NCBI GenBank assembly: GCA_009914755.4
Contig: CP068257.2
Span: 12,192,001-12,256,000, forward strand
Origin: the human T2T-CHM13v2.0 reference genome, Homo sapiens
Direction of reading: 5' to 3'
Length of the DNA stretch: 64,000 bases
The notes under the pieces are model-generated. The model was given only the letters and a program-made list of their open reading frames with translations, was not told the DNA's origin and did not search any database. Positions 3,873-32,821 of this stretch are shown here, in pieces. Numbering within the stretch: position 1 is the first letter of the stretch; every line of letters begins with the position of its first letter. Position numbers and translations under genes: made by a program.

Positions 3873-6800
3873 CCATATCAGAAGGCCAAGCGGCAATGAG
3901 ATGTTTCATATGGCAGGAGTAGGAGCAAGACAGAGAGAGGAAAGAGGTGTGACATCCTGTTAGACAACCAGATCACATAAGAACTCACCATCAGGACATC
4001 GGCATCAAGAAAACTAACCAATGGTGAAGGATCCTCCACCCACACCACCGCCCACTGTTTCCAGGCAGAAGCCTCCTGCAGAAGCAGAACCTCTTAGGAA
4101 ACATCCACTATGGCAGTGCAGAAGGAAAATATAGGCTTTGAGCCCCCACACAGGAGGCCACCTTCCTCCAGACTCCAGGTTCATAAGCCCACCAACAGCT
4201 CACACCCTCAGTATGGAAAAGCTACAGGCACTCGACACCAACCCAGCCCATGAGAGCAGCCATGGGGGCAACACCCTGCAAAGCCAGAGATGCACTGTCC
4301 TAGTAGAGGTTTCCCATGAGCCTCTGCCTCTGCAGCAAGTTACTCCCACCCTCCCACCACCCTACTGACGACCTACTCCTCCCCACACTACTCCTCCTTT
4401 TCCTTCCACCCCAACCCCCTCCCATCCAAGATTAAATCACCTCCCACCTGGCACACCTCCGACATTAAGGATGACACGTGAGTTTTACAGGGACACACAG
4501 CCAACCCATATTATTCTGACCCTGATACCCCAGAACCTCATGTCCTTCTCACAGAGCAAAACACAATCATGCCTTTTCAAAAGTTTCCAAAAGTCTTAAC
4601 TCATTCCAAATGTAAAAATTTCAAAGTCTCATCTGAGACAAGGTTACAATCCCTTCTGCCAATGAGTCCCTGAATTTAAAAGGGATTTCTTTTCCTTCAA
4701 GGTACAATAGGCATTGGGTAAGTTTTCTCAATCCAAAGGGAAGAAATTCCCCAGAAAAATAACACAAATGCAAGTCCAAACCCCAGCAGGACAGTATTCA
4801 TTCAATACAGTATCTCACAGCTCTGTAATCATCAAGAGAACTCACTATCATGCAGACAGCATTAAGGAGACAGTGTTAAACAATTTATGAAGAATCCAAT
4901 CCCCACCCTCATCTTTCACACCCATCCACAAAATAATCTCCACCATTCTCCCCACACCCCTACCTCCAACACCCACTCTTCGCCATGATTAAATCACCTC
5001 CCACCAGGCCCCACCTTTAACTTTCACCATCACAATTCCATGAGAGTATTGGTAGGGACAAAAAGTCAAATCATATTATTCTGACATGGGTCCCCCCCAA
5101 TCTCATATCCTTGTCACACTACAAAATACAATGATGCCTTCTGTACAGTCCCCCAAATTCTTAACTCATTCCAGCATTTACTGAAATGCCCAAAGCCCAG
5201 AGTCTCATCTGAGGCAAGTCTACAGTCCCTTCTGCTCATGAGCCACTGAATTACATATAAAGCAAGTTTACTACTTCCAAGGTGCAATGATTGTACAGGC
5301 GTTGGGTAAGCATTCCCAGCCAAAAGGAAAAAAATTGCCAGAAAGAAGCACAAAAAACAGATGGGGCTTACAGACCCCATGCAAGTCAAAAACCCAGCAG
5401 GCCAGTCATTGAATCCTACAGCTCCCAAATCATATTTTCTGAATCTGTATCCCACATCTGGAGCACAGGGGTGGATAGCTGGGCTCCCAAGGCCTTGGGC
5501 AGCTCAGCATCTGTGACTGTGCAGGGTCTATCCCCCACAGGTGACCTCATGGGCTGGGCTGGTGTTGAGTGCCTGTGGCTTTTCCACACTGAGGGTGCCA
5601 GCAGTTGGCGGGTCTATGAATCTGGGGTCTGGAAAATGGTGCATTCCTGTGTGGGCGCTACAACCCTATATGTTCCTTCTGTACTGCCCTAGTAAATGTT
5701 TCCCATGAGGCTCTGCCTCTTGGAAAAGCTGCTGTCTCAACACCCAGGTTTTCCCATACATACTCTGGAGTCTAGACAAAGGCTCCCAAGCCTCTAGTTT
5801 TGTGCTCTGTGCACCTGCTGGCTTAGTACTATGTGGAAGCCACCAAGGTTTGAAGCTTGCACCCCTGAAGCAGTGATGCAAGCTGTACCTGTGCATCTTT
5901 CAGCCGTGACTGGAGCTGGAGCTGGAGCTGGAGCTGCAGGGATGCAGGCAGCAGTGTCCTGAGGATGAACACAGCAACGCGACCATGGGACTCACCCAGG
6001 AAAGCATTCTTGGGTCCTAGAACTCGGGGCCTGTGACAGCAAGCTCTGCTGCAAAGGTCTCTGAAATGGCTTCAAGACCTTTTAACCTTGTCTTAGCTAT
6101 TAGCACTGGGCTCCATTTTATGCAAATTTCTGAAGCCTTCTTGAATTTTCCCACTGAAAATCAGCTTTGCTTTTTGACCACTTGGCCAGGCTGCAAATTT
6201 TCCAAACTTTTAAGTCCTGCTTCTCATTTAAATATAACTTTCAACTTGAGGTCATTTATTCAGTCACAGAGAAGACCACAGGCTGTTCAAAACAGACAAG
6301 ACACCTCTTGCGCTTTGCTGCCTACTTCATTTCACCAGATATACCCTAAATTATCACTCTCAAGTTCAAAGTTTCAGAGGTCTCCAGGGCAGGAACACCA
6401 TCCAGCCAAGTTCTTTGCTAAGGCAAAACAAAAGTAACCTTAACTCCTGTTCCCAGTAAGTTGCTCATTTTCATCTGAGACCTTCTAAGTCTGGCCTTCA
6501 CTGTCCATCCTTCAGTCACTCTTTTAATTATAGCTATGTAACAAGTCTCTATGGTCACCGTTTTAATTTAACACATCTCTACAATAGTCCAAATTTTCCC
6601 TCATCTTTCTGTCTTCTTCCAAGCCCCCCAAACTGTGCAGCATCTGGTCGTTACCCACGTCTGAACCTGCTTCTACATTTTCAGCTACCGTTGTGGCAGC
6701 CTGGCAATGTGGTAAAAGAAGAAAAGTCCATTTTCAGGGGGAAAATTCAAGAAGCCTTCAGATATTTGCATATAGAAGAAGCCAAATGCTAATAGTAAAA

Positions 6801-6882
6801 AAAAAAAAGATGAAGAAACCTTGAGGGCATTTCATAGCTCCACTTTACAGTACAAATTTTCTGTAGTATTATTTTTAAAAGA
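3872..6882. repeat. Monomer m0 (F-type, 5'-truncated at the array edge)
   Basis: It is homologous to 23053-26235. ORF 5114-5455(-) matches 24493-24804(-). It starts mid-LTR at 'ccatatcagaaggccaagcggcaatgagatgtttcatatggcagg'. Confidence 0.85.
5912..5935. repeat. (GGAGCT)4 microsatellite in the F-type monomer
   Basis: 'ggagctggagctggagctggagctgcaggg'. The equivalent sites are 25261-25290 ('ggagctgtagctgtagctgtagctgcaggg') and 44817-44840 ('ggagctggagctggggctgcaggg'). Confidence 0.9.
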
Positions 6883-7640
6883 GGTTTAACTGGCTCATGT
6901 TTCTGCAGGCTGTAAAGGCAGCAAGTGGCTTCTGCTTCTGGGAGGACTCAGGAAGCCTCCCAATCATACCAAAAGGCCAAGTGACAATGAGATGTTCCAT
7001 ATGGCAGGAGTAAGAAGAAGATACAGAGAAGAAAGAGGTGCCACACCCGGTTATACAACCAGATCTCATGAGAACTCACTATCAGAAGATCAGCCTCAGG
7101 AAGATTAACCAATGGTGAAGGATCCGCCCGCACCACCCCTCGCTGTTTCCAGGCGGAAGCCTCCTGCAGAGGCAGAACCTCTTGGAGAACCTCTACCAGC
7201 GCAGTGCAGAAGGAAAATATGAGCTTGTAGCCCCCACACAGGAGGCCACCATCCTCCAGACAGGAGATTGATAAACCCACCAACAGCTTGCACTCTCTGC
7301 GTGGAAAAGCTACAGGCACTCAACACCAGCCCAGCCCATGAGAGCAGCCATGGGGGCTACACCCTGCAAAGCCACAGGTGCACTGCCCTAGTAGAGACTT
7401 TCCATGAGCCTCTGCCTCTGCAGCAGGCTACTTCCCCCTCCTACTACCCACCACCCTATCACCACCCTACTAACAACGTACTCCTCACCCTACCAACCCC
7501 TTTTCCTTCCACCCCCGGCCCCCGAACATCCATGATTAAATCACCTCCAGCCAGGCCCCACCTCCAATATTAAGGATTACAATTCACATGAGTTTTGGTA
7601 AAGAAACACAGCCAAATCATATTATTCTGACCCTGATCCC
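6840..7640 (-). mobile_element. Representative LTR-like portion of a monomer: MaLR-type LTR (reverse complement) interrupted by a ~400 bp insertion; an equivalent segment starts each monomer
   Basis: 'gaggtttaactggctcatgtttctgcaggctgtaaaggcagcaagtggcttctgcttctgggaggactcaggaagcctcccaatcataccaaaaggccaag...cagatctcatgagaactcactatcag...ggtgaaggatccgcccg' runs to the insertion at 7125-7520, then 'catgattaaatcacctccagccaggccccacctccaatattaaggattacaattcacatgagttttggtaaagaaacacagccaaatcatattattctgaccctg'. Confidence 0.7.
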
Positions 7641-9994
7641 CACAGTCTCATGTCCTTCTCACAGAGAAAAATATATTCATGCCTTTTCAAAAGTTTCCAG
7701 AAGTCTTAACTCATTCCAACATTAACTCAAATGTAAAAAAATCAACATCTCATCTGAGACAAGTCTACAGTACCTTTTGCCTATGAGTCCCTGAATTTAA
7801 AAGGATGTTCTTTTCTTTCAAGGTACAATAATGGTACAGGCTTTGGGTAAGATTTTTCAATCCAAAGGGAAGAAATTTCCCAGGAAGAAAACACAAATGG
7901 GACCACAGGCCCAATACAAGTCCAAAACCCAGAAGGCCAGTATCCATTCAATCTTACAGCTCCAAAATCATGAAGAGAACTCACTATCACAAGGACAGCA
8001 ATAAGGAGAGTGTTTAATCATTTGTGAAGCATCCGTCCCCCACCCCCAATTTTCACTGCTCACCCGCACCATAAATCCCCCAGTCTCCCTAAGCCCCATC
8101 TTCCAACCCCCACCCTCCACCGTGATTAAATCACCTTCCTCCAGGCCCCACCTTTAACATTCCGATGACAATTCCACATGAGTTTTGGTAGAGACACAGA
8201 GCTGAATTTTATTATTCTGTCCCTGGCTCCCCAAATCTCATGTCCTTCTCACATTGCAAAATACAATGATGCCTTCCCTACAGTCCCCCAAAATCTTATA
8301 TCATTACAGTATTTATACAAATGTTGAAAGCTTAAAGTCTCATCTGACACAAGGCTACAGTTTCTTAGGCCCATGAGCCTCTGAAATATAACGCAAGTTA
8401 ACTACTTCCAAGGTACAATGCTTGTACAGGCATTGGGTAAGCATTCCCAGCCAAAAGGAAGAACGTTGCCGGAAAAAAACAAAACACAGATAGGACTTAC
8501 CGGCCCCATGAAACTACAAACCCAGAAGGCCAGTCATTCCATCCTACAGTTCCAAAATCACCCTTTTTGAAACCTTGTCCCACATCCAGGGCACAGGGGT
8601 GTGAGGGCTGGGCTTCCAAGGCCTTGGGCAGCTTGGCACCTGTGGCTTTGCAGGGTTTATGCCCCACAGCTGGCCTCATGGGCTCGGCTGGTGTTGAGTG
8701 CCTGTGACTTTTCCTCACTGAGAATACAAGTTGTTGGGGGGTCTATGAATCTGGGGTCTGCATGATGGTGGCCTCCAGTGTGGGGGCTCCAACCCCATGT
8801 TTTCCTTCTGCACTGCCCTAGTAGAAGTTTCATATAAGGCTCTGCCTTTTTGGGGTGCTTTTGCCTGGACACCCAGGCATTTCCATACATCTTCCAAAAT
8901 CTATAGAGAGGTTCCGAAGCCTCTAGTCTCATGCTCCGTCCGCCAGTGGCTTAACACTATGAGGAATTTACCAAGGCTTCTAGCCAGCACCCTCTGTAGC
9001 AGTGACCCAAGCTGTAGCTGTGCATCTTTCAATCATGGCTGGAGCTGGAGCTGGAGCTGGAGATGGAGCTGGAGATGGAGCTGCAGGGATGCAGGCAGCA
9101 GTGTCCTGAGGCTCCACACAGAGGGGGTCATGGAACTGGCCCAGGAAACTGTTCTTCTCTCCTAGGCCCCAGGGCCTGTAACAACAAGGGCTGCTGCAAA
9201 GGTCTCTGAAATGCCTTCAAGGCCTTTTCCCTATTGTCTTGTCTATTAGCACTGGGCTCCTTTTCATGCAAGTTTCCGAAGCCTTCCTCAATTTTCCCCC
9301 TGAAAATCAGCTTTTCTTTTGGACCACATGGCCAGGCCGCAAATTTTCCAAACTTTTGAGTTCTGTTTCTCATGTAATGTAAGAGTTGGGACTCATTTAA
9401 TGTAAGTCTCATCCAGAGGTCATTTCCTCCATCCCACATAAGAGCACAGGCTGTTCAATGGAAACAGGACAACTCTTGAGCTTTGCTGCTCAGTTCATTC
9501 CACCAGATACTCAGTAAATCATCACCCTCAAGTTCAAAGTTTCACAGATCTCCAGGGCGAGGTCACCGTGCAGCCACGTTCTTTGCTAAGGAAACAAAAG
9601 TAACTTTGACTTCTGTTCCCAGTAAGTGCTTCATTTTCATCTGAGACCTTCTAAGTCGGGCTTTCACTGACCATTTTCCTGTGAGCCTTCTGATCACAAA
9701 TGTTTAACAATTCTTTACAAAGATCCAAACTTTCATTCATCTTCTTGTCTTCGAAGCCCTCCAAACTCTTCCGACCTCTGTATGCTACTCCCTTCTGAAC
9801 CTGCTTCTACATTATCACTATCTTTGCCACAGCCTGGCAATGTGGTAAAGGAAAACAAGTCCATTTTCAGGGGGAAAATTCATGAAGCCTTCACATACTT
9901 GAATGAAAAGAAGCTGAGTGCTGATTGCCACGACAATGACATTTAATAGTTCCACTTTGCACTACTAATTTTCTCTATGATCATAAAGAAAAGA
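6883..9994. repeat. Monomer m1 (A-type), first monomer of HOR copy 1
   Basis: It is bounded by 'ggtttaactggctcatg' at 6883 and 'ggtttaattggctcatg' at 9995. Its ORFs recur at 27115-28811 and 46671-48355. Confidence 0.9.
9041..9082. repeat. (GGAGCT/GGAGAT)7 microsatellite in the A-type monomer of copy 1
   Basis: 'ggagctggagctggagctggagatggagctggagatggagct'. Confidence 0.9.
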
Positions 9995-12900
9995 GGTTTA
10001 ATTGGCTCATGATTCTGCAGGCTGTAAGGAAACACAGTGGCTTCTGAATCTGGGAGGACTCAGGATGCCTCCCAATCATACCAGAATGTCCAGGGGCAAT
10101 GAGATGATTCATGTGGCAGGAGTAGGCACAAGACAGAGAGGAAAGAGGGCCACACCCTATTATACAACCAAATCTTATGTGAACTCACTATTACAAGGTC
10201 AGCATCATGAAGATGGTGCTTAAACATTGATGAAGGAACAACCACCCACACCCAACTCCCACTGTTTCCAAACAGAAGCCTGCTGCACAGGCAGAGCCTC
10301 TTGGAAAACCTGTACTAGGGCAGTGTGGAAGGAAAATATGAGCTTGGAGCCCCCACAGAGATGGCCACCACCCTCCAGACCCCAGATTCACAGACCCATC
10401 AGCAGCTCACACCCTCTGTGGAAAAGCTACAGGTTTTTCCAAACCTCAACACCAACCCAGCCCATGAAAGCATCTGCAGGGGCTCAACCCTGCAAAGCCA
10501 CAGGTGGATTGCCCTAGTAGAGGTTTTCCATGAGGCTTTGCCTCAGCAGCAGGCTACTCCCCCTTCCTACTACCCCCAACCCTCCCACCATTCTACTGCC
10601 AGCCTACTCCTCCCCACCCCAACCAACCATTTTGTGATACCCTACCTTGTTTTAACCTGATCGACTCTCCCTTAGCTGAGGGAGCCAGGCAGACTCCATC
10701 TTGGCTGTTTCACTTGCAGCCCCTTACACACATCCCTTCCTCAAGGACATAACTTGTGCAAGCTGACTCCCAGCACATCAACGAATGCAATTACTGACAA
10801 GATACTGTGGCAAGCTATATCCACAGTTCCCAGGAATTCACCCCGTTGATGGTACCTAAAACCCCCGCATTTCTGTCCAGTTGATAGCACCCAAAGCCCC
10901 CACCTCTATCACCTTTTGATGGATTTAAAGTCCCTGCACCTGGAACTGTTTGTTTTCCTGTAGCCATTTACCTTTTTAACTTTTTTGCCTGTTTTGCTTC
11001 TGTAAGATTGCTTCAACGAGGCCTCCCCTCCCCTTTCTAAACCAAAGTATAAAAGAAAATCTAGCCCCTTCTTCCGGGCCGAGAGAATTTTGAGCACTAG
11101 CGCTCTCTCAGTCGCTGGCAATAAAGGTCTCCTGAAGTCGTCTCATAGTGTGGCGTTTCTCTACCACTCGCTTGGTTACAACCCTTTTCCTTCCACCCCC
11201 CAACCCACCTCCAATCCATGATTAAATCATCGCCCCCAGGCCCCACTTTCAACATTTGGAATTACAATTCCACCTGAATTTTTTTAGGGACTCACAGCCA
11301 AACCATATTATTCTTACCCTGATATCCCAGAATCTCATGTCCTTATCACAGAGCAAAATACAATCATGCCTTTTCAAAAGTTCCAATAGCCTTAACTAAT
11401 TCCAAGTGTAAAAAGTTCAAAGTCTCATCTGAGACAAGGCTACTGCCCCTTCTGCCTATGAGTCCCTGAATTTAAAAGAGATTTCTTTTCTTTCAAGGTA
11501 CAATGATGGTAGAGGTATTGTGTAAGCTTTCTCAATCCAAAGGGAAGAAATTTCCCAGAAAAATAACACAAATGGGCCCACAGGCCCAGTGCAAGTCCAA
11601 AACCCAGCAGGACAGTATTCACTCAATCTCACAGCTCAAAAATCATTAAGAGAACTCATCGTCATGCGGAAAGCATTAAGGAGACAGTGTTTACCCATTT
11701 GTGAAGAATCTGTTCCCCCGCCCTCATCTTTCACTCCCATCCACAAAATAATCTCTCCCGTTCTCCCCACACCCCTACCTCCAACACCCACTCTTCTCCA
11801 TGATTAAATCACCTCCCACCAGTTCCCACCTTTAACATTCCCCCCTAAAATTCCACATGAATATTGGTAGAGACACAAATTCAAATCATATCATTCTGGC
11901 TCTTGCTCCCCAAATCTTGTATCCTTGTCACACTGCAAAATACATTGATGACTTCTTTACTGTCCCCCAAAGACTTAACTCATTCCAGCATTTACTAAAA
12001 TGTACAAGGACTTACAGACCCCATGCAAGTCAAAAACCCAGCAGGCCAGTCATTGAATCCTACAGCTCCAAATCATCTTTTCTGAATGGACATCTCTCAT
12101 CCGATCACAGGAGTGTCATGGCTGGGCTCCCAAGGCCTTGGGCAGCTCTGCACCTGTGGCTGTGCACGGTCTATCCCCCACAGCTGCCCTCATGGGCTGG
12201 GCTGGTGTTGAGTGCCTGTAGCTTTTCCAAACTAAGGTTGGAAAAGCCAGCTGTTGGTGGGTCTATGAATCTGGGGTCTGGAGAATGGTGCCTCCATATT
12301 TAGGGACCCCAGCCCTATATTATCCTTCTGTACTGCCCTAGTAAAGGTTTCCCATGAGGCTCTGCCTCTTGGAAAAGCTTCTACCTGAAAACCCAGGTTT
12401 TTCCGTAGATACTCTGGAGTCTAGACAAAGGCTCCCAAGCCTCTAGTTTTGTTCTCTGTGCACCTGCTGGCTTAACACTATGTGGAAGCCACCAAGGCTT
12501 GAAGCTTACACCCCTGAAGCGTGATGCAAGCTGTACCTGTGCATCTTTCAGCCATGGCTGGAACTAGAGCTGCAGGGATGCAGGCAGCAGTGTCTTGAGA
12601 CTGCACATAGAGGGGGGTCATGGAACTGGCCTAGGAAACCATTCTTCTCTCCGAGGCCCCAGGGCCTATGATAGCAAGGGCTGCTGCAAAGGTTTCTGAA
12701 ATGGCTTCAAGGCCTTTTCCCTATTGTCTTGGCTATTAGCACTGGGCTCCTTTTCATGCAAATTTCTAAAGCCTTCCTCAGTTTTCCCCTGAAAATCAGC
12801 TTTTCTTTTTGACCATTTGGCCAGGCTGCAAATTTTTGAGTTCTGTTTCTCATTTAATATAAGAGTTGGGACTCATTTAATGTAAGATCCATCCAGATGT

Positions 12901-13496
12901 CATTTTCTCGGTCACACATAAGGGCACAGGCTGTTTGATACAGACAGGACACCCCTTGAGCTTTGCTGTCCAGAAGTTCATTCCAACAGATACGCAGTAA
13001 GTCATCACCCACAAGTTCAAAGTTTCACAGATCTCCAGGGCAGTGTCACTGTGCATCCACGTTCTTTGCTACAGCAAAACAAAAGGCACCTTGGCTCCTG
13101 TTTGCAGTAAGTTCCTCATTTTCATCTGAGAGCTTCTCAATCTGATCCTTACCGTCTATTTTCCTATGAGTCTTCTGATCACAAGTATTTAACAACTTTT
13201 TACAAAGATCCAAACTTTCCCTCATCTCCCTGTCTTTGAAGTCCTCCAAACTCTCCAGAACTCCATCTGCTACCCCCTTCTGAACCTGCTTCTACATTTT
13301 CAGCTATCTTTGTCACAGTCTGGCAGTGTGGTAAAGGAAGACAAGCCCATTTTCTTGGGAAAAATTCAAGGGGCTTCAGATACTTGAATGAAAAGAAGCT
13401 GAGTGCTGATTGCCAAGACATTAGGGAGAAGGCCTTGAAGACATTTAATAGATCCACTTTGCAGTAATAATTTTCTCCATAATCATAAAGAAAAGA
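9995..13496. repeat. Monomer m2 (B-type)
   Basis: ORFs 10191-10391(-) and 10909-11121(-) recur at 29530-29730, 30239-30451, 49075-49275 and 49782-49994. Confidence 0.9.
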
Positions 13497-16361
13497 GGTT
13501 TAATAGGTTAATGATTCTGCAGGCTGTAAGGAAGCATAGTGGCTTCTGCACCTGACAGGACTCAGGAAGCTTCCCAATCATACCAGAATGTCAAGGGGCA
13601 AGGAGATGTCTCATATGGGAAGAGTAGGAGCATGACAGAGAAAGGAAACAGGTGTCATGTCCCATTATACAAGCAGATCTCATGAGAACTCACTATCACA
13701 AGGTCAGCATCAAGAAGATGGTGCTTAAACATTGGTGAAGGATCCGCCCCACACACCCAACTCTCACTGTTTCTAGGCAGAAGCCTCCTACAGATGCAGA
13801 GCCTCTTGGAAAACCTCTATTATGGAAGTGCAGAAAGAAAATATGGGTTTGGAGTCCCCACACAGGTGGCCACCAAACTCCAGATCCCGGATTCATAGAC
13901 CCACTAGCAACTCACGCACTTAGTGTGGTAAAGCTACAGGCCCTCAATACCAGCCCACCCCACGAGAACAGCTGAGGGGCTAAAACCTGCAAAGCCACAG
14001 GTGCACTGCCCTAGTAGAGGTTTTCCACGAGGCTTTGCCTCTGCAGCAGGCTACTCCCCCTTCCTACTACCCCCCACCCTCCCACCACCCTACTGCCAAC
14101 CCACTCCTCCCAATCCTACCCATCCCTTTTACCTTCCACCGCCACCAACTTCCTGTCCATAATTAAGTCACTTGCTTCAACATTAGGGATTACAATTCCA
14201 CATGAGTTTCATAGGGACACACAGGAAAACCATATAATTCTGACCCTGATATTCCAGAATCTCATGTCCTTATCACAGAGCAAAATACCATCATGACCTC
14301 TCAAAAGTTTGCAAAAGTCTTAACTCATTCCAAATGTAAAAAATTCAGTCTCATCTGAGACAAGGCCACAGTCCCTTCTGTCTATGAGTCCCTGAATTTA
14401 AAACGGAGTTCTTTTCTTTCAAGGTACAATGATGGTAGAGACATTGTGTAAGCTTTCTCAGTCCAAAGGGAAGAAATTTCCCAGAAAAATAACACAAATG
14501 GGCCTACAGGCCCAATGCAAGTCCAAAACCCAGCGGGACAGTATTCACTCAGTCTCTCAGCTCCAAAATCATCAAGAGAACTCACTATCATGTGAACAGC
14601 ATTAAGGAGAGCGTGTTTATCCATTTGTGAAACATCCGCCCCCCACCCTCATCTTTCACTCCCACCCACAAAAAAATCTCTTCTATTCTCCCCACTCCCT
14701 TACCTCCAACCCCCATGCTTCTCCATGATTAAATCCCCTCCCACCAGGCCCCATTTTTAACATTCCCCATTATAATTCCACATGATTTTGGTAGGGATGC
14801 AGAGTCAAATCATATTATTCTGACCCTGGCCCCCGTATCTCATGTTCTTCTCACACTGCAAAATACCATGATGCCTTCTCTACAGTTTCCCAATCTCTTA
14901 ACTCATTCCAGCATTTACTGAAATGTCCAAAGCCCAAAGTCTCTTCTGAGACAAGGCTGGGGTCTCTTCTGCCCCTGAGCCTCTGAAATACAAAGTAAGT
15001 TAACTACTACCAAAGTACAGTGATTGTACACACATTGGGTAAGTATTCCCAGCCAAAAGGAAGAAATTAGCCAGAAAGAAGAACAAAACACAGATGGGAC
15101 TTACAAACCCCATAGGAGTCAAAAATCCAACAGCCAGTCATTGAATCCTACAGTTCCAAACCATTTTTTTTGAATCCAGATCCCACATTCAGAGCACAAG
15201 GGTATGAGGCCTGGGCTCCCAAGGCCTTGGGCAGCTCTGCACCTGTGAAGTTGCAGGGTCTAACCTCCACAGTTGTCCTCATGGGCTGGGCTGATGTTGA
15301 ATACCTATAGGTTTTCCACAATGAGGGTGCAAGCTGCTAGTAAGTCTATGAATCTGGTGTTTGCAGAATGGTGCCTCCCTGTATTGGGGTTCCAACCCTA
15401 TATTTTCCTTCTGTACTGCCCTAGTAAAGGAGGCTCTGCCTCTTGGAAAAATTTCGACCTGGACACCCAACTTTTTCCATACATACTCTGGAGTCCAGAC
15501 AAAGGATCCCCAGCCTCCAGTTTTGTGCTCTGAGCACCTGCTGGCTTAACACTATGTGGAAGCCACCAAGGCTTGCAGTTTGCACCCTCGGAAGCAGTGA
15601 CCCAGGCTGTACCTGTGCATCTTTCAACCATGGCTGGAGCTGGAGCTTCAGGAATCCAGCCAGCAGTGTCCTGAGGATGGACATAGCAGCGGGGTCATGG
15701 GGCTGGAGAAGGAAACCATTCTTTTCTCCCAGGCCTCAGGGCCTGTGATAGCAAGGGCTGCTGAAAAAGTCTCTGAAATGCCTTCAAGGCCTTTTTAACA
15801 TTGTATTGGCTATTAGCACTGAACTCCATTTTATAAACATTTCTGAAGCCTTCTTGAACTTTCCCACTGATAATAAGCTTTTCTTTTTGACCACTTGGCC
15901 AGGCTGCAAATTTTCACAACTTTTAATCTCTCCTTGTCATTTAAATATGTTTCACCTTGAGGTCATTTCTTTGGTCACATATTTTCATGTGAGACCTTCT
16001 AAGCCTGGTGGTCACTGTCCATCCTTATGTCACCTTCTTAATTATAACTATTTAACAAGTCTCTACACTGATCCAAACTTTTCCTCATCTTCCTGTCTTC
16101 TTCCAAGACCTCTAAACTCTCCAACCTCTGGCCATTACACACTTCTTAACCTGCTTCTACATTTTCAGCTACATGTGTCACAGCCTGGCAATGTGGTAAA
16201 AGAAGAAAAGTCCATTTCAGGAGAAAAATTAATGCAGGCTTTAGACGTTTGCCTGAAAAGAAGCTGAGTGCTGATTGCCATGACAATAGGGAAAAGGTCT
16301 TGAAGGCATTTCATAGCTCCACTTTACAGCATTAATTTTCTGTATAATCAGAAAGAAAAGA
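13497..16361. repeat. Monomer m3 (C-type; ~190 bp shorter than its copy-2 counterpart)
   Basis: ORFs 13696-13896(-) and 14382-14624(-) recur at 33036-33221 and 33707-33949. It shows an internal deletion near 15981 relative to 35291-35485. Confidence 0.9.
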
Positions 16362-19300
16362 GGTTGAACTGGCTCATGGTTCTGCAAGCTTTAAATAAAT
16401 CATAGAGGCTTCTGCTTCTGGGAGGACTCAGGAAGCCTCCCAATCATACCAGAAGACCAAGCAACAATGGGAAGTTTTATATGGCAGAAGTAGAAACAAG
16501 ACAGAGAGGAAAAAGGTGGCACACGTTGTATAAACCTGTTATACAACCAGATTTCCTGAGAACTCACTATCACAAGGTCAGCATCAAGAAGATGTTGCTT
16601 AACCATTGGTGAAAGATCTGCCCCCTACCACCCCCACCCCCCACTGTTTCCAGGCAGAAGCCTGAGGCACAGGCAGAGCCTCTTGGAAAACCTCTACTAG
16701 GGCAGTGCAGAAAAAATATATGGGCTTGGAGGCCCCACGCAACCATCCACCAGACCACAGATTCATAGACCCAACAATAGCTTGCATTCTCAGTATGGAA
16801 AAGCCACAGGCACTCAACACCAGCCCAGCCGACGAAGGCAGCCATGGGGGCTAATGCCTGCAAAGCCACAGGTGCACTGCCCTGGTAGAGCTTTTCCATG
16901 AGGCTCTGCCTCTGCAGCAGGCTACTCCCTCTTCCTACTGCCCACCACACTCTCACCACCCTACTGCCAGCCTACTCCTCCCCACCCTACCCACTTGTTT
17001 TCCCTTCCACCCCTACCAACCTCCCATTTGTGATTAAATCACTTCCCACCAGGCCCCACCTGCAACAGTCAGGAATACAATTCACCAAGAGTTTTTGTAG
17101 GGAAACACAGTCAAACCATATTATTCTGACCCTGAAACCCCCACATCTCATGTCCTTCTCACACAGAAAAATACAAACATGCCTTTTCAAAAGTTTCCAA
17201 AAGTCTTAACTCATTCCAGCAGTAACTCAAATGTAGTAAGTTCAAGTCTCATCCAAGACAAGGCTGCAATCTCTTCTGCCTATGAGTCCCTGAATGTAAA
17301 AGACAATTCTTTTCTTTCAAGTTACAGTGATGGCACAGGCACTGGGTAAGCTTTCTCAATCCAAAGGGAAGATTTTCCCTGAAAAATAACACAACTGGGA
17401 CACAGGCCCAATCCGAGTCCAAAACCCAGCAGGACAGCATTCATTTATCATGAGAACTCACTATCGCACAGACTGCATTAAGGTGATAGTATTTAACCAT
17501 TTGTGAAGGATCTGCCACCCATCCCCATGTTTCACCCTCACCCACACCATGAACCCCCATTCTCCCACATCCACCTTCCAACCCCCATTCTCTACCATGA
17601 TTAAATCACCTTCTACCAAGCCCCACATTTGACATTCCCCATTACAATTCCACATGAGTTTTGGAAGGGACACAGAGCCAAATCATATTATTCTCCCCTT
17701 GGTCCCCAACCTCATGACCTTCTTATACTGCAAAATATAATGATGTGTTCTCTAAGGTCCCCCAATGTCTGAACTCATTCCAGCATTTACTCAAATGTCC
17801 ATTTGTGAAGGATCCACCCCCCACCCCTCCCTTTCAGCCACAAATGCACCACAATCCGCCAACACTCCCCACCCACCTATAGCCCCAACCCTCCACACCA
17901 CCCCCAGCATCCACCCTCCATGCTCCACCATGATTAAATCACCTTCCACCAGCCCCCACCTTTAACATTTCCCATTAAAATTCCACATGAGTTTTGGTAG
18001 AGACACAGAGCCAAAACATATTATTCTGCCCCTGGTCCCCCAAATCTCATGTCTTTTTCATATTGCAAAATGCAATGATGCCTTCCCTAGAGTCCCCTAA
18101 ATCTCAACTCATTCCAGCCTTTACTCAAATATCCAAAGCCCAAAGTCTCTTCTGAGACAAGGCTGCAGTCTCTTCTGCCCTGAGACTCTGAAATACACAG
18201 CAAATTAACTACTTCCAAGGTACAATGACTGTACTGGCATTGGTTAAGCATTCCCAGGCAAAAAGAAGAAATTTGCCAGAAAGAAGCATAAAACACAGAT
18301 GGGACTTACAAACTCCCTGCAAGTCAAAAGCCCAGCAGACCAGTCATCCATCATACACCACCAAATCACCTTTTTGGAATCTATGTCCACATCCAGAGCA
18401 CAGGGTGATGTGACAGCTGGGATCCCAAGGCCTTGGGCAGCTCTGCACCTGTGGCATTGCAGAATCTTTCCCCTACAGTTGCCCTCATTGACTAGGCTGG
18501 TGTTGAGTGCCTGTAGCTTTTCAACACTAAGGGTGCAAGCATCTGGTGCGTCTATGAAACTGGGGCCTGGAAAATGGTGCCTCCCTGTATGGGGACTCCA
18601 ACCCTATACTCTCCTTGTGTACTGCCTGAGTAGAAGTTTACGATGAGGCTCTGCCTCTTGGAAAAGCTTCTGGCTGGACAATCAGGCTTTCTGATACATC
18701 CTCTGAAGTCTAGATGAAGGCTCAGAAGCTTCTAGTCCTTGCTTTATGCAACTGCTGGCTTAACACCTTGTGGAAGCCACCAAGTCTTCGAGCTTGCATC
18801 CTCTGAAGCAGTGACACAAGCTGTACCTGTGCATCTTTCATCCATGGCTGGAGCTGGAGATGGAGCTGCAGGGATGCAGGCAGCAGTGTCCTGAGGCTGC
18901 ACACAGCAGTGGAGCCATGGGGCTGGTGCAGGAAACCATTCTTTTCTCCTGGGCCCCGGGGCCAGTGACAGCAAGGGCTGCTACAAAGGTCTCTGAAATG
19001 CCTTCAAGACCTTTTTCCCATTGTCTTGAATTATTAGCACTGGGATCCTTTTTATGCAAATATCTGAAGCCTTCTTCACTTTCCCCCAGAAAATCAGCTT
19101 TTCTTTTTGACCACTTGTGCAGATTACAAATTTTGCGTATGTTTAAACTCTCCTTCTCATTTAAATATAAGTTCCAACTTATAGTCATTTCTTTGATCAC
19201 ACATAGGTGCGCAGGCTGTTCAATGTAGGCAGGACAACTCTTGAGCATTGTTGCTTAGAAGTTCATTCTACCAGATACACTCTAAATCATCACCCTCAAG

Positions 19301-19780
19301 TTCAGTTTCACAGATCTCCTGGAAAGGATCAATGTGTAGTCAATTACTTTGCTAAGGCAAAACAAAAAAACCTTGGCTCCTCTTCCCAGTGAGTACTTCA
19401 TTTTCACCTGAGATCTTGTAAGCCTGACATTCACTGTCCATCCTTATGTTAGCCTTTTAATCACAACTATTGAACAAGTCTCTGCAATGGTCCAAACTTT
19501 CCCTCATCTTCCTGTTTTCTTCCAAGATCTCCGAACTCTCTAACCTCTGGCCATTACCTAATTCAGAACCTGCTTCTACACTATCAGGTATCATTTTCGC
19601 AGCCTGGCAATGTGGTAACAGAAGAAAAGTCTATTATCAGGGGGAAACATCAAGATGGTATCCAATATTTGCATTGAAAAAAGCTCAGTGCTAATAACCA
19701 AGAGATTGGGGGAAGGCCTAGAAGTCATTTCATAGCTTCACTTCGCAGCATTAATTGTCTGTATGTACATAAAGAAAAGA
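16362..19780. repeat. Monomer m4 (D-type; carries an extra LTR-end sub-repeat)
   Basis: The landmark 'atgattaaatcacc' occurs three times in this monomer, at about 17030, 17590 and 17930. ORFs recur at 36299-38814. Confidence 0.9.
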
Positions 19781-22700
19781 GGTTTAGTTGACTCACAGTT
19801 CTTCAGGCTATAAAGAAAGCATAGTGGATTCTGCTTGTAGGAGGACTCAGGAAGCCTCCCAATCAAACCAGAGGCCAAGCAGCAATGAAATGTTTCATAT
19901 GCCAGAAGTAGAAGCAAGACAGAAAGAGGAAAGAGGTGCGACATCCTCTTATACAACTAGATCTCATGAGAGCTCACTGTCAGGAGATCAGCATCAAGAA
20001 GATGGTGCTTCACTGTTGGTGAAGGAACCGCCCACCACCCCATATCCACCACCCACTGTTTCCAAGTAGAAGCCTGAGACAGAGGCAGATCCTCTTGGAA
20101 AACCTCTACTATGGCTGTTTAGAAGAAAACTATGGGCTTGGAGCCCCCATGTAGGATACCAGCATCCTCCAATCCCCAGATTCATAGAACCATCAACAGC
20201 TCACACCCCCAGTATCGAAAAGCTACAGGCACTCAACACCAGCCCAGCCCATGAGAGCAGCTACAGGTGCTAAACCCTGCAAAGCCCCAGGTGCACTGCC
20301 TTAGTAGAGTTTTTCCATGAGCCTCTGCCTCTGCGGCAGGCTACTCCCATCCTGCTACACACCACCCTACAGCCAGCCTACTCCTCCCCACCTTACCCAC
20401 CTGTTTTGACTTCCAATCCAACCCCTCTCCCATCCATGAATAAATCACCTCCCACCAGGCCTCACCTGCAACATTGGGGATTACAATTACATGTGAGTTT
20501 AGGTAGGGACACACAGCTAAACAATATTATTCTGACCCTGATCCCCCAAATATCATATCCTTCTCACAGAGTAAAATACAATCATGCCTTTTCAAAAGCT
20601 GCCAAAAGTCTTAAGTCATTTCAGCATTAACTCAAATTTAAAAAGTTCAAAGTCTCACCTGAGAAAAGGCTACAGACCCTTTGGCCTATAAGTTCCTGAA
20701 TTTAAAAGGGATTTATTTTCTTTCAAGATACAAAGATGGTACAGGCATTGGGTAAGTTTTGTCAATCCAAAGGGGAGAGGTGTGCCAGGAAAATAACACA
20801 AATGGGATCACAGGGCCAATGCAAGTCCAAAACCCAGGAGGCCAGTATCCATTCAATCTCACTGCTCCAAAACAATCACAAGAACTCATCATCATGAGGA
20901 AAGGATTAAGGAGATGGTGTTTAACCATTTGTGAAGGATCCTACCCCCACCCCCACTTTTCACCCCTCACCCCCACCATAATCCACCCATTCTCCCCAAT
21001 CCCCACCTTCCAATACCCAGTGCCCTCCACGATTAAATCACCTTCCACCTGGCCCCACTTTCAACATTTCTGATTACAATTCCATATGAGTTTCCATAGG
21101 GACACACAGCCAAATCTTATTATTCTGTCCCTGCCCCACAAATCTCATGTCCTTCTCACTTTGCAAAATACAATGATGCCTTACTTACCATTCCCCAAGC
21201 CACTGTGCTTTTTTTTTTACAGCCTGCAGAACCATGAGCCCATTAAACCCCTTTTTGTTATGATCATACAGAAAATTAGTATTGTGAAGTGAAGCTATGA
21301 AATGCCTTCAATGACTTTTCCCCATCATCTCGGCTAAGACCCCCAAGGTCTTAACTCATTCCATCATTTACTCAACTGTCTGAAGCCCAAAGTCTCATCT
21401 AAGACAAAGATGCAGTCCCATCTCCTCCTGAGCCTCTGAAATACAAAGCAAGTTAACTACTTCCAAGGTATGATTGTCCAGACATTGAGTAAGAATTCCC
21501 AACCAAAAGGAAGATTTATGCCAGAGACAAGAACAAAACACAAACGGGACTTATAGGTCCCATGAAAATCCAAAACCCAGCAGGCCAGTTATTCAAACCT
21601 ACAGCTCCAAAGTCATCCTTTTTCAATCCTTGTCCCACATCCAGGGCACAAGTGTATGAGGGCTGGGTTCCCAAGGCCTTGGGCAGCACTCTACCTGTGG
21701 CTTTGCAGTGTTCAGTCCCCACAGCTGCCCTCATGGGCTGTGCTGGTGTTGAGTGCCTGTAGTTTTTACCCACAGAGGGTACAAAGTTCTTGGTGGGTCT
21801 ATGAATCTGGGGTCTGCATGATGCTGGCATCCAGTGTGGGTGCCCCAACCCCATATTTTCCTTCTGCAATGCCCTAGTAGAGGTTTCCCAGGAGTCTCTG
21901 CTTTTTTGGCAGCCTTCTGTCTGGACACCAAGACACTTTCATACATCTTCCGAAATCTGTATGAAGGCTCCAAAGCCTCTGGGCTAGTGCTCTGTGCACT
22001 CGCTAGCTTAAAACTATATGGAAGCCATGAAGCCTTACAGCCTGTACCCTCTGAAGCAGTGATGCAATCTGTACCTGTGCATCTTTCAGCCAAGGTCGGT
22101 GCAGGAGCTGGGGCAGCCGGGTTTCAGGCAGCAGTGTCCTGAGGCTGCACACAGCAGCAGGGTCATGGGGCTGGCCCAGGAAACCATTCTTCTCTAATAG
22201 GCCCCAGGGACTGTGACAGCAAGGGCTGCTGCAAACATCTCTGAAATGCCTCCAAGGCTTTTTCCCCCAGTGTCTTGGCTATTAGCACTGGCCTCCATTT
22301 TATGCAAGTTTCTGGAGCCTTCATGAATTTTCCCCCTGAAAATCAGCTTTTCTTTTTAACCACTTGGCCAGGCTGCGGATATTCCAAACTTTTGAGCTCT
22401 GCTTGTCATTTAAATATAAGTTCCAACTTGAGGTCATTTCCTCGGTCACACATAACCTCGGTCACACATGAAAGCACAGGCTGTTTGATGCAGACATGCC
22501 CCCACCCTTGTGCTATGCTGCCTAGAAGTTCTTTCCACCAGATATGCACTAAATCTTCACCCTAGAGTTCAAAATTTCACAGATCTTGAGGGCAAGGTCG
22601 CCCTGCAGCCATGTTCTTTGCTACAGCAAAACAAAAGCTAACCTTGGCTCCCGTTCCCAGTAAGATCCTCATTTTCATCTGAGACCTTGTAAGCCTGGCC

Positions 22701-23052
22701 TTCACTGTCCATCCTTCTGCCAGCCTTTTAATCACAACTATTTAACAAGTGCCTACAATGGTCCAAATTTCCCTTCATCTCCCTGCCTTCTTTCAAGATC
22801 TCCAAACTCTCCAACCTCTGGCTGTTACCCACTTCTGAACCTGCTTTACATTTTCAGCTATCTTTGTTGCAGCCTGGCAATGCAGAAGAAAAAGAAGTCC
22901 ATTTTCAGGGGGAAAACTTCAGGAAGCCTTCAGATATTTGCATTAAAAAGAAGTCCAGTGCTAATAGCCAAGAAGATGGGGAAATGTCATTGAAGATATT
23001 TCATAGCTCCACTTCGCAGTACTTTATTTTCTGCATGATCATAACGAAAAGG
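19781..23052. repeat. Monomer m5 (E-type)
   Basis: ORFs 19994-20185(-), 20406-20630(+) and 21086-21292(+) recur at 39561-39752, 40003-40197 and 40652-40855. Confidence 0.9.
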
Positions 23053-26000: not shown

Positions 26001-26235
26001 TACCCACTTCTGAACCTGCTTCTACGTTTTCAGCCACCGTTGTGGCAGCCTAGCAATGTGGTGAAAGGAGAAAAGTCCATTTTCAGGGGGAAAATTCAAG
26101 AAGGCTTCAGATATTACCATATAAAAGTGGGCAAATGTTAATAGTAAAAAAAAAAAAAAAATGGGGAAAAAACCTTGAGGGCATTTCATGGCTCCACTCT
26201 ACAGTACAAATTTTCTGTAATATTATTTTTAAAAG
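23053..26235. repeat. Monomer m6 (F-type), last monomer of HOR copy 1
   Basis: ORFs 23001-23237(-) and 24493-24804(-) recur at 42560-42796 and 52320-52556. Confidence 0.9.
26146..26161. repeat. Poly(A)16 tract inside the F/A-type monomer tail (A12 at the equivalent site 6797-6808)
   Basis: 'atagtaaaaaaaaaaaaaaaatgggg'. Confidence 0.9.
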
Positions 26236-29200: not shown

Positions 29201-29331
29201 ATTTTCAGGGGAAAATTCATGAAGCCTTCACATACTTGAATGAAAAGAAGCTGAGTGCTGATTGCCACGACAATGACATTTAATAGTTCCACTTTGCACT
29301 ACTAATTTTCTCTATGATCATAAAGAAAAGA
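26236..29331. repeat. Monomer m7 (A-type), first monomer of HOR copy 2
   Basis: It is homologous to 6883-9994 at a +19.35 kb offset. Confidence 0.9.
28391..28420. repeat. (GGAGCT)5 microsatellite in the A-type monomer of copy 2
   Basis: 'ggagctggagctggagctggagctggagctgcaggg' sits at the position equivalent to 9041-9082. Confidence 0.9.
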
Positions 29332-32300: not shown

Positions 32301-32821
32301 TTTATTCCATCAGATACACAGTAAGTCATCACCCACAAGTTCAAAGTTTCACAGATCTCCAGGGCAGTGTCACTGTGCAGCCACGTTCTTTGCTACAGCA
32401 AAACAAAAGGCACCTTGGCTCCTGTTTGCAGTAAGTTCCTCATTTTCATCTCACAGCCTCTCAATCTGATCCTTACTGTCTATTTTCCTGTGAGCCTTCT
32501 GATCACAAGTATTCAACAATTCTTTACAAAGATCCAAACTTACCCTCATCTCCCTGTCTTTGAAGTCCTCCAAACTCTCCAGAACTCCATCTGCTACCCC
32601 CTTCTGAACCTGCTTCTACATTATCAGCTATCTTTGTCATACCCTGGCAATGTGGTAAAGGAAGACAAGCCCATTTTCCGGGGAAAAATTCAAGGAGGTT
32701 TCAGATACTTGAATAAAAAGAAGCTGAGTGCTGATTGCCAAGACATTAGAGAGAAGGCCTTGAAGACATTTAATAGATCCACTTTGCAGTAATAATTTTC
32801 TCCATGATCATAAAGAAAAGA
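29332..32821. repeat. Monomer m8 (B-type)
   Basis: It is homologous to 9995-13496. Confidence 0.9.

What the first reader, a model, noticed from the sequence alone, without database searches (positions are those of the whole stretch)
7160..8870. A conserved ~130 bp inverted repeat inside every monomer, arms about 1.45 kb apart
The segment at about 7160-7290 ('...ctaccagcgcagtgcagaaggaaaatatgagcttgtagcccccacacaggaggccaccatcctccagac...') is the reverse complement of 8735-8870 ('...gggtctatgaatctggggtctgcatgatggtggcctccagtgtgggggctccaaccccatgttttccttctgcactgccctagtag...'). The same pair recurs in other monomers, for example 10290-10400 against 12250-12360 (ORFs 'MNLGSGGWWP' on minus and 'SMNLGSGEWC' on plus). 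Part of the LTR-internal insertion is therefore an inverted copy of downstream monomer sequence. Such arms can form stem-loops or cruciforms and promote rearrangement.
Basis: seen in the sequence. Interest (0 to 1): 0.5.

Follow-up and report, generated by a model that had tools for sequence, protein, structure and literature searches.

The report
Inverted retrotransposon fragments in known human megasatellite
The inverted repeat is real and sits in every monomer, but it is an inherited structural fossil of an already described human tandem array built from MaLR retrotransposon pieces, and nothing in this window shows that it does anything.

Summary
Arm A (7145-7381) is the reverse complement of arm B (8636-8872): 237 nt, 80% identity, BLAST E 3e-57. 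The window holds 17 A-type and 16 B-type copies, one pair in each of 16 monomers of 2.9-3.5 kb.

The array (about 3880-57660) matches the "LTR array" megasatellite of Warburton et al. 2008 (PMC2588610). That family has roughly 3.5 kb monomers built from MSTA/THE1 LTR and MSTA-int fragments "in both orientations". The paper's FISH primers hit every monomer here. [quoted passage not shown]

- **Origin.** Arm B lies in native internal sequence. Arm A lies in an approximately 410 bp insertion in the LTR that two neighbouring LTRs lack.
- **Neutral decay.** Arms in the same monomer are no more complementary than arms from different monomers (74.9% vs 75.2%). I found no compensatory changes.
- **Stability.** No monomer in the window has an inverted spacer.
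- **Elsewhere.** Two low-coverage human contigs from metagenomes show a spacer inversion with hybrid arms. This may be real or an assembly chimera.

Verdict: already known, a passive relic, low interest.

The parts
3880..57660 (-). The tandem array: 16 complete monomers (2874-3505 bp) plus partial terminal units. The MaLR elements are antisense on the + strand. Monomers form a 6-monomer higher-order repeat of about 19.4 kb.
   Evidence: monomers one repeat apart are 93-96% identical, adjacent ones 79-84%. The Warburton FISH primers hit every monomer. The size and structure match the paper's 21q11.2 entry.
7145..7381 (+). Arm A of the focal monomer (m02). It is an MSTA-int-like fragment in the opposite orientation to the rest of the element, lying in an insertion in the LTR.
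8636..8872 (-). Arm B of the focal monomer. This is the native copy, collinear with the surrounding internal region.
5507..5743 (-). Arm B of the preceding monomer (m01). It is the left-hand inverted partner of arm A 7145-7381. It shares one symmetry axis with the second inverted pair (coordinate sums 12888 vs 12890-12896).
   Evidence: (I7: 5507-5720 vs 7168-7381, 81%)
7158..7208 (+). Outer end of arm A. It forms a 51 nt inverted pair with 7379-7429.
   Evidence: (I3, 82%)
7379..7435 (+). A short return to the native orientation at the inner end of arm A (equivalent to 8809-8847). It pairs with 7158-7208. The Warburton primer 1B site lies at 7415-7435.
7436..7529 (+). CCACC-rich low-complexity filler that completes the LTR insertion.
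   Evidence: Read directly; consensus positions 340-437
6880..7130 (-). The 3' part of the MaLR LTR (reverse complement on +), to the left of the insertion.
7530..7625 (-). The 5' part of the same LTR, to the right of the insertion.
6059..6194 (-). Second inverted pair, native arm (internal region of m01).
6696..6837 (+). Second inverted pair, ectopic arm. It lies just before the LTR, near the 5' end of the internal region.
   Evidence: (I2, I4)
9204..9340 (-). Second inverted pair, native arm in m02.
9830..9938 (+). Second inverted pair, ectopic arm in m02.
4057..4293 (+). Arm A, m01
10264..10506 (+). Arm A, m03
12150..12392 (-). Arm B, m03
13769..14004 (+). Arm A, m04
15239..15430 (-). Arm B, m04
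16646..16875 (+). Arm A, m05
18445..18658 (-). Arm B, m05
20058..20294 (+). Arm A, m06
21693..21928 (-). Arm B, m06
23329..23563 (+). Arm A, m07
24856..25069 (-). Arm B, m07
26499..26731 (+). Arm A, m08
27988..28222 (-). Arm B, m08
29603..29837 (+). Arm A, m09
31474..31716 (-). Arm B, m09
33094..33329 (+). Arm A, m10
34566..34757 (-). Arm B, m10
36156..36392 (+). Arm A, m11
38011..38224 (-). Arm B, m11
39625..39861 (+). Arm A, m12
41255..41463 (-). Arm B, m12
42888..43122 (+). Arm A, m13
44415..44628 (-). Arm B, m13
46051..46287 (+). Arm A, m14
47543..47778 (-). Arm B, m14
49148..49382 (+). Arm A, m15
51017..51254 (-). Arm B, m15
52648..52882 (+). Arm A, m16
54178..54390 (-). Arm B, m16
55770..56004 (+). 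Arm A of the truncated last unit, with no B arm downstream.
56400..56830 (-). LTR of the same family at the array edge, uninterrupted. It serves as the internal control for the insertion site.
   Evidence: 16 bp join consensus position 25 to position 440
57315..57658 (-). A second, more diverged uninterrupted LTR that ends the array.

Best explanation
The inverted repeat is a structural fossil of the founder monomer of the human MaLR "LTR array" megasatellite.

**Shown.**
- Each monomer is an antisense MSTA/THE1-type element (LTR plus internal region).
- Arm B is part of that internal region, in its native place.
- Arm A is a 237 nt copy of the same stretch in the opposite orientation. It lies in an approximately 410 bp insertion in the LTR together with a 51-57 nt switch-back piece and CCACC-rich filler.
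- A second ectopic patch of 138 nt lies about 320 bp to the left of arm A.
- The two ectopic patches and their native partners share one symmetry axis to within 5-9 bp over about 700 bp.

**Inferred.**
- The shared axis points to a single templated copying event from the opposite strand of the same element. This could be template switching at a fork or fold-back repair synthesis. Two unrelated insertions would not be expected to keep this register.
- The event predates tandem amplification. Unequal crossing-over, higher-order repeat formation and segmental duplication then carried the pair into every monomer.

**Shown about its later history.** The arms have since decayed independently and neutrally. 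There is no arm-to-arm homogenisation and no compensation. In this window the repeat has no detectable effect on array structure.
For: **Family identity.**
- Warburton's FISH primers hit once per monomer.
- The array has a 6-monomer higher-order repeat.
- A 545 bp TG...CA solo-LTR insertion occurs once per repeat, in m03, m09 and m15.
- The array is about 53.8 kb with 16 units. All of this matches the paper's 21q11.2 array.
- The paper states that the monomers hold MSTA-int fragments in both orientations.

**Arm A is the ectopic copy.** Neighbouring LTRs are uninterrupted at the insertion site. Arm B is collinear with the internal region.

**Single old origin.**
- A arms form one clade.
- Mean identity is 75.1% for A to B, below 82.6% for A to A and 80.3% for B to B. 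The A and B consensus sequences are 89.5% identical.

**Family-wide.** A and B arms alternate in all long human contigs from paralogous arrays.

**Neutral decay.**
- Complementarity is 74.9% for arms of the same monomer and 75.2% for other pairings.
- Permutation test: P = 0.78 for complementarity. There are 18 compensatory double changes against 21.3 expected.
- Duplex energy is -294 kcal/mol for same-monomer arms and -297 for other pairings.

**Common register.** Consensus coordinate sums are 4942-4943 for the second pair and 4948-4951 for the first. The same holds in window coordinates.
Against: - The template-switch origin is inferred only from the shared register. The about 318 bp between the two ectopic patches is ordinary LTR sequence and not an inverted copy. 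A nested opposite-strand MSTA fragment that was later partly overwritten is therefore not excluded.
- No RepeatMasker or Dfam run was possible. The MSTA/THE1 naming rests on the paper and on my recollection of the consensus sequences.
- The chromosomal assignment is by matching a published description, not by alignment to a reference genome. None of the 46 human contigs is more than 97.8% identical to the window.
- Contigs L018 and L006 hint that the arms may not be wholly inert in other copies.
Confidence: 0.85

Rival explanations
1. The arms are recombinogenic. Homologous exchange between an A arm and a B arm has flipped the 1.2-1.6 kb spacer in some copies of the family. On this view the inverted repeat is a source of structural variation in these arrays.
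For: - In contig L018 (5.2 kb), the segment from arm A through the spacer to arm B is inverted relative to both flanks.
- Both L018 junction arms are hybrids: B-type outside with A-type inside, and the reciprocal.
- L006 carries one junction of the same kind and is 90% identical to L018 across it.
- In yeast, inverted repeats with 75% homology and kilobase spacers do interact when they lie in single-stranded DNA (PMC10164571).
Against: - Both contigs are short-read metagenome assemblies at 2.2x and 3.5x coverage, built from collapsed paralogues.
- The switch points fall in the one 20-25 nt block shared exactly by A and B arms. The longest exact match in L018 is 21 nt. A low-k de Bruijn graph would mis-join at exactly that place.
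- Each half of L018 has a closer relative in normal orientation (L015 at 93%, L027 at 91%) than L006, so the two junctions are not inherited from a common ancestor.
- None of the 16 spacers in the window is inverted, and no other contig has the arrangement.
Confidence: 0.35
2. The pair works at the RNA level. Transcripts crossing a monomer fold into a stem of about 200 bp with mismatches, and this stem is processed into small RNAs or is edited or sensed as double-stranded RNA.
For: The minimum-energy fold of the whole A-to-B span pairs 187-204 of about 237 arm positions, on either strand, in all five monomers tested. That MaLR LTRs can act as promoters is my own background knowledge and was not tested here.
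Against: - There is no covariation and no excess pairing between arms of the same monomer.
- The arms have decayed to 67-81% complementarity.
- No Rfam family matches the window.
- No expression data are available with these tools.
- The predicted pairing follows automatically from any inverted duplication.
Confidence: 0.05
3. The pair is a palindrome kept similar by arm-to-arm gene conversion, as in the human Y-chromosome palindromes.
For: B arms of monomer types a and e carry A-like bases at several diagnostic sites.
Against: - Arms are only 75% identical, and same-monomer arms are no closer than other pairings.
- The A-like bases in B arms of types a and e are more simply retained ancestral states. 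In the tree those arms sit nearest the A clade.
Confidence: 0.02
4. The arms are terminal inverted repeats of a DNA transposon or foldback element that inserted into the monomer.
For: There are two inverted arms with a spacer of about 1.3 kb. The arm A insertion itself begins and ends with a 51 nt inverted pair.
Against: - Arm B is collinear with the retrotransposon internal region on both of its sides.
- The spacer is made of ordinary LTR and internal sequence, including a 590 bp direct duplication.
- No target-site duplication is evident, and no transposase ORF was sought or seen.
Confidence: 0.01

Closest known systems
"LTR array" megasatellite of MaLR retrotransposons (Warburton et al. 2008, BMC Genomics 9:533, PMC2588610), specifically the 21q11.2 array
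   Same: - Monomer size.
- MaLR LTR plus MSTA-int fragments in both orientations.
- Both FISH primers match every monomer.
- A 6-monomer higher-order repeat with a solo-LTR insertion once per repeat.
[quoted passage not shown]
   Different: No difference in kind. The paper describes the mixed orientations only at RepeatMasker level. It does not report the 237 nt and 138 nt inverted pairs, their common register, or how the arms have evolved.
Inverted Alu pairs and quasi-palindromes that cause fragility (Lobachev laboratory; PMC10164571, PMC3855049)
   Same: Two copies of a retroelement sequence of a few hundred bp in inverted orientation on one chromosome.
   Different: The fragile cases have 86-100% arm identity and spacers of 12-100 bp. 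Here identity is 67-81% and the spacer is 1.2-1.6 kb, so cruciform extrusion in duplex DNA is not expected. Only the single-stranded DNA annealing route described in that paper would tolerate these values.
Human Y-chromosome palindromes P1-P8 (for example PMC3723533)
   Same: Inverted arms around a spacer, with inversion of the spacer as a possible outcome.
   Different: Y palindrome arms are more than 99.9% identical through ongoing gene conversion. These arms show no homogenisation at all.
Other human macrosatellites with units of about 3 kb (D4Z4, DXZ4, TAF11-like)
   Same: Tandem arrays of kilobase units that vary by unequal crossing-over.
   Different: Those units are GC-rich or gene-bearing and are not built from a single retrotransposon family. 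I know of no equivalent internal inverted pair in them (my own knowledge, not tested).

Membership tests
LTR array megasatellite (Warburton 2008) | Tandem monomers of about 3.5 kb | tested here: met
   16 monomers of 2874-3505 bp
LTR array megasatellite (Warburton 2008) | Published FISH primers 1A and 1B present in the monomers | tested here: met
   1B: 17 + strand sites with 0-2 mismatches. 1A: 16 sites with 0-1 mismatch. About 0.01-0.02 sites are expected by chance.
LTR array megasatellite (Warburton 2008) | Monomer made of MaLR LTR and MSTA-int fragments in both orientations | tested here: inconclusive
   Both orientations of the same internal sequence are shown. The LTR structure is shown by comparison with uninterrupted LTRs in the window. 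The MSTA/THE1 names could not be tested because no Dfam or RepeatMasker run was possible.
LTR array megasatellite (Warburton 2008) | Higher-order repeat of 6 monomers (arrays on 13q11, 18p11.21 and 21q11.2) | tested here: met
   m02/m08/m14, m03/m09, m04/m10, m05/m11, m06/m12 and m07/m13 are 93-96% identical within each set. Other pairs are 79-84%.
LTR array megasatellite (Warburton 2008) | A full-length LTR6A inserted in one monomer of each higher-order repeat | tested here: inconclusive
   A 545 bp insertion with TG...CA ends and an AATAAA signal is present in m03, m09 and m15 only. Its identity as LTR6A was not testable.
LTR array megasatellite, 21q11.2 copy | [quoted passage not shown] | tested here: met
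   The array spans about 3880-57660, or 53.8 kb, with 16 complete monomers. m15 is a b/e hybrid followed by an f-like monomer. The chromosome itself was not verified by alignment.
Cruciform-prone or fragile inverted repeat | Near-identical arms and a spacer of tens of bp | tested here: not met
   Arms are 67-81% complementary with spacers of 1213-1643 nt. Thresholds are from PMC10164571.
Gene-conversion-maintained palindrome | Same-unit arms more alike than arms of different units | tested here: not met
   74.9% vs 75.2%, permutation P = 0.78
Structured RNA or hairpin RNA locus | Pairing conserved through compensatory changes | tested here: not met
   18 double-change complementary cells against 21.3 +/- 3.8 with permuted partners. 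No Rfam match.
Structured RNA or hairpin RNA locus | A transcript that spans both arms, and its processing products | not testable with these tools
   No expression, small-RNA or editing data are available.

The most novel reading that the evidence does not exclude
Each of the hundred or more monomers of this megasatellite family in the human genome encodes a hairpin of about 200 bp with mismatches. If the arrays are transcribed from their MaLR LTRs, for example in germline, early embryo or hypomethylated tumour cells, they would be a concentrated source of long double-stranded RNA. That RNA could act as an endo-siRNA precursor, an ADAR substrate or a trigger of innate sensing. The same arms may also flip their spacers and create inversion polymorphism within the arrays.
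Probability: 0.06. Interest if true: 0.5.

Novelty: already known. Interest (0 to 1): 0.15.

Why it matters
It matters little. The array family and the mixed orientation of its retrotransposon fragments were published in 2008.

This analysis adds four things:
- A base-level map of two inverted pairs that share one symmetry axis, which hints that the founder monomer arose by templated copying from the opposite strand.
- A clean negative result: the arms evolve neutrally, with no homogenisation and no compensation.
- A reasoned argument that they are too diverged and too far apart to extrude cruciforms.
- One testable lead: a possible spacer inversion in paralogous copies, which is easy to check in complete long-read human assemblies.

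Tried and rejected
- **Rfam scan** of the whole window at gathering thresholds gave no match.
- **Alu search** with 3 mismatches gave none in 64 kb. I first read the flanking inverted repeats as Alu pairs, and that was wrong.
- **Literature search by a sequence string** from the LTR gave one irrelevant paper.
- **Scan of bacterial and archaeal genome contigs** for primer 1B gave nothing.
- **Search for later literature** on these arrays (MSTA-int, T2T, pericentromeric) gave nothing relevant. The OwlRep paper concerns a different MSTA-linked satellite.
- **Same-monomer vs other-pairing arm comparison**, by identity, permutation and duplex energy, showed no signal.
- **Terminal-inverted-repeat transposon reading** was rejected because arm B is collinear with its context.
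- **Gene conversion between arms** was rejected.
- **Alignment A1** used seven mis-trimmed B arms. I did not rely on it. The numbers come from the correctly trimmed alignment.
- **Outgroup test** of whether arm A was copied from the same element or from another MSTA copy was not possible. No independent MSTA-int copy is available in the window, and my remembered consensus is not reliable enough.
Full report
**1. The observation**

The repeat finder reports arms 7145-7381 and 8636-8872 as a 237 nt ungapped inverted pair, 80% complementary, with 1254 nt between them. BLAST of 7100-7450 against the window gives E 2.7e-57 for this pair.

Using 7145-7381 as query, the window holds 17 copies on the + strand (A-type) and 16 long copies on the - strand (B-type). 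They alternate A, B, A, B along 4057-56004.

- The inner distance from A to the downstream B is 1213-1643 nt.
- The distance from B to the next A is about 1.37-1.45 kb.
- Each arm therefore has an inverted partner on both sides.

**2. What the array is**

The region from about 3880 to 57660 is a tandem array of 16 complete monomers (2874-3505 bp) plus truncated terminal units. Adjacent monomers are 79-84% identical. Monomers six apart are 93-96% identical, which gives a 6-monomer higher-order repeat of about 19.4 kb.

The literature search found Warburton et al. 2008 (PMC2588610). [quoted passage not shown]

- The family has 25 arrays on 9 chromosomes.
- Arrays on 13q11, 18p11.21 and 21q11.2 have 6-monomer higher-order repeats.
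- Each higher-order repeat carries one LTR6A insertion.
- The 21q11.2 array has 16 units, spans 53.8 kb, and has a 3-monomer deletion in its third higher-order repeat.

All of these features are present in the window.

- Primer 1B has 17 + strand sites with 0-2 mismatches, and primer 1A has 16 sites with 0-1 mismatch. About 0.01-0.02 sites are expected by chance.
- Monomers m03, m09 and m15 carry a 545 bp insertion with TG...CA ends and an AATAAA signal.
- m15 is a hybrid of types b and e and is followed by an f-like monomer. [quoted passage not shown]
- The span is 53.8 kb.

I therefore file the window under this family, and most probably as its 21q11.2 copy. I could not align it to a reference genome.

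**3. Anatomy of the monomer**

I built a 3114 bp majority consensus of the 16 monomers, starting at the equivalent of window 7100, and compared it with itself on both strands. In consensus coordinates:

| Positions | Feature |
|---|---|
| 1-30 | End of the LTR 3' part (reverse complement on +) |
| 50-296 | Arm A |
| 284-340 | Short piece back in the native orientation. It pairs with 57-113 (91%) and is a direct copy of 1724-1764. |
| 340-437 | CCACC-rich filler |
| 438-533 | LTR 5' part |
| 534-880 | 3' end of the internal region |
| 880-1477 | Partial direct duplicate of LTR plus internal 3' end (391-881 vs 989-1477, 82%) |
| 1477-2700 | Remainder of the internal region, including arm B at 1538-1787 |
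| 2708-2845 | Second ectopic patch, the inverted copy of 2098-2234 (138 nt, 89%) |
| 2885-3114 | LTR 3' part |

Arm B is continuous with the internal sequence on both sides, so it is the native copy.

Arm A is the ectopic copy. Two LTRs of the same family at the right edge of the array (56400-56830 and 57315-57658) run across the insertion site with only 16-18 bp between consensus position 25 and position 440.

**4. A second inverted pair and a shared axis**

The 138 nt pair is also present in every monomer, with 17 + strand and 16 full-length - strand copies.

- In consensus coordinates its arm positions sum to 4942-4943.
- The B arm and the next A arm sum to 4948-4951.
- In window coordinates, 5507-5743 with 7145-7381 sum to 12888, and 6059-6194 with 6696-6837 sum to 12890-12896.

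The two ectopic patches and their native partners thus share one symmetry axis to within 5-9 bp over about 700 bp. The approximately 318 bp between the ectopic patches is ordinary LTR, and the approximately 310 bp between the native partners is ordinary internal sequence.

I infer one templated copying event from the opposite strand, in two patches. This could be fork template switching or fold-back repair synthesis. Two independent insertions would not be expected to keep this register. This step is inference. A nested opposite-strand element that was later partly overwritten is not excluded.

The shared axis also means that the historical partner of arm A 7145-7381 is the B arm on its left (5507-5743).

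**5. Age and mode of evolution**

In a joint alignment of all 33 arms:

| Comparison | Mean identity |
|---|---|
| A to A | 82.6% |
| B to B | 80.3% |
| A to reverse-complemented B | 75.1% |
| Consensus A to consensus B | 89.5% |

The A arms form one clade. The inverted copy therefore arose once, before the monomers diverged.

- Same-monomer pairs (A and B of one monomer) average 74.9% complementarity.
- B with the next A averages 75.0%.
- All other pairings average 75.2% (sd 2.6).
- Permuting partners gives P = 0.78 for complementarity.
- There are 18 compensatory double changes, against 21.3 +/- 3.8 expected.
- RNA duplex energy is -294 kcal/mol for same-monomer arms, -297 for other pairings, and -112 with one arm shuffled.

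I see no homogenisation between arms and no selection to keep them paired.

B arms of monomer types a and e share bases with the A arms at several diagnostic sites. In the tree they sit nearest the A clade. Retained ancestral states explain this most simply.

**6.

As a single strand, yes in principle. The minimum-energy fold of the entire A-to-B span pairs 187-204 of about 237 arm positions on either strand, in all five monomers tested. This follows from any inverted duplication and is not evidence of function.

As a cruciform in duplex DNA, it is unlikely. In the yeast Alu inverted-repeat system, lengthening the spacer from 12 to 100 bp cuts inverted-repeat-induced recombination about 300-fold, and instability disappears at 75% homology. 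Only within long single-stranded regions are 75% homology and kilobase spacers tolerated (PMC10164571).

Within the window no spacer is inverted, and all 16 monomers are collinear. The one rearrangement present is a direct-repeat unequal crossover.

**7. Related sequences from elsewhere**

A scan of metagenome contigs with primer 1B returned 46 contigs. Those whose source is named come from human skin metagenomes, so I read the set as human DNA contamination. They are 84-98% identical to the window, so they come from paralogous arrays. Wherever a contig is long enough, A and B arms alternate in inverted orientation at the usual spacing. L007, for example, has five arms in 8.8 kb. The pair is therefore a property of the whole family.

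Two contigs differ.

- In L018, the segment from arm A through the spacer to arm B (contig 2585-4442) is inverted relative to both flanks.
- Its two junction arms are reciprocal hybrids. One has a b-type B arm outside and an e-type A arm inside. The other has an e-type A arm outside and a B-type arm inside.
- L006 has one junction of the same kind and is 90% identical to L018 across it.

This is the signature of homologous exchange between inverted arms. I do not accept it as shown, for four reasons.

- The contigs are 2.2x and 3.5x short-read assemblies of collapsed paralogues.
- The switch points lie in the only 20-25 nt block that A and B arms share exactly. The longest exact match in L018 is 21 nt.
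- Each half of L018 has a closer normal-orientation relative than L006.
- No other contig repeats either junction.

I give it about one chance in three of being real.

**8. Comparison with what is known, and verdict**

The object is a member of a described family, and the presence of fragments in both orientations is stated in the 2008 paper.

- It does not meet the criteria for a fragile quasi-palindrome: arm identity and spacer length were tested and not met.
- It does not meet the criteria for a conversion-maintained palindrome: tested and not met.
- It shows no sign of a conserved RNA structure: covariation was tested and not met, and expression is not testable here.

It works like nothing in particular. 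It is a passenger that records how the founder monomer was assembled.

Novelty: already known. Interest: low. The only lead worth a follow-up is the possible spacer inversion, which a survey of complete long-read human assemblies would settle quickly.

Noticed in passing
window 6059-6194 / 6696-6837 and the equivalent sites in every monomer: A second inverted pair of 138 nt, 89% at consensus level, lies 474-500 nt apart in every monomer. It shares one symmetry axis (within 5-9 bp) with the B arm and the next A arm. This suggests one templated inverted copying event laid down in two patches.
   Followed up: yes
window 7158-7208 / 7379-7435 and equivalents: The arm A insertion begins and ends with a 51-57 nt inverted pair (82-91%). 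At its inner end the sequence switches back to the native orientation, at a GTGCAC microhomology.
   Followed up: partly
window 7490-7980 vs 8090-8576 (consensus 391-881 vs 989-1477): There is a direct duplication of about 590 bp inside each monomer, covering the LTR 5' part plus the 3' end of the internal region (82%). The second copy has the CCACC-rich filler but no arm A.
   Followed up: partly
window 10633-11179, 29963-30509, 49506-50052: A 545 bp insertion with TG...CA ends and an AATAAA signal occurs once per higher-order repeat (m03, m09, m15), inside the spacer between the arms. It is presumably the full-length LTR6A reported by Warburton et al. It lengthens the spacer to 1.64 kb.
   Followed up: partly
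window 21198-21337 and 40764-40900: A 139 bp insertion is specific to e-type monomers (m06, m12). It contains a 42 nt piece related to the second inverted pair. The same insertion is present in contig L018.
   Followed up: no
window 49103-52592 (m15): m15 is a hybrid monomer, 89-91% identical to type b and 86% to type e. It marks an unequal crossover that removed three monomers from the third higher-order repeat. m01 is likewise mixed: its arm A is a-like while the rest is f-like.
   Followed up: partly
window 3000-3870 and 60800-61420: A degenerate 15 bp minisatellite (CCCCACTGACCAGGY) lies on both sides of the array, on the same strand. The left array boundary abuts it directly at about 3880.
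   Followed up: partly
window 57921-58832 (- strand) and 58809-58967 (+): Fragments of a sorting-nexin BAR domain (Pfam BAR_3_WASP_bdg, E 1e-15), broken by stops and frameshifts, look like a processed pseudogene. Part of it is duplicated in inverted orientation (58252-58410 vs 58809-58967, 91%).
   Followed up: partly
window 1832-2104 / 2529-2801: The longest inverted repeat in the window (273 nt, 85%, 424 nt apart) lies in the GC-rich left flank. It is not Alu and remains unexplained. Contigs L003, L034 and L036 carry paralogues of this flank joined to the array at 87-93% identity.
   Followed up: no
L018 2585-4442; L006 1-416: Human contigs from metagenomes show the spacer between the arms inverted, with hybrid junction arms. 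This is either a real inverted-repeat-mediated inversion in a paralogous array or a low-coverage assembly chimera.
   Followed up: partly
window 4000-57000: There is a persistent negative GC skew (about -0.2) on the + strand across the whole array, and not one Alu in 64 kb.
   Followed up: no
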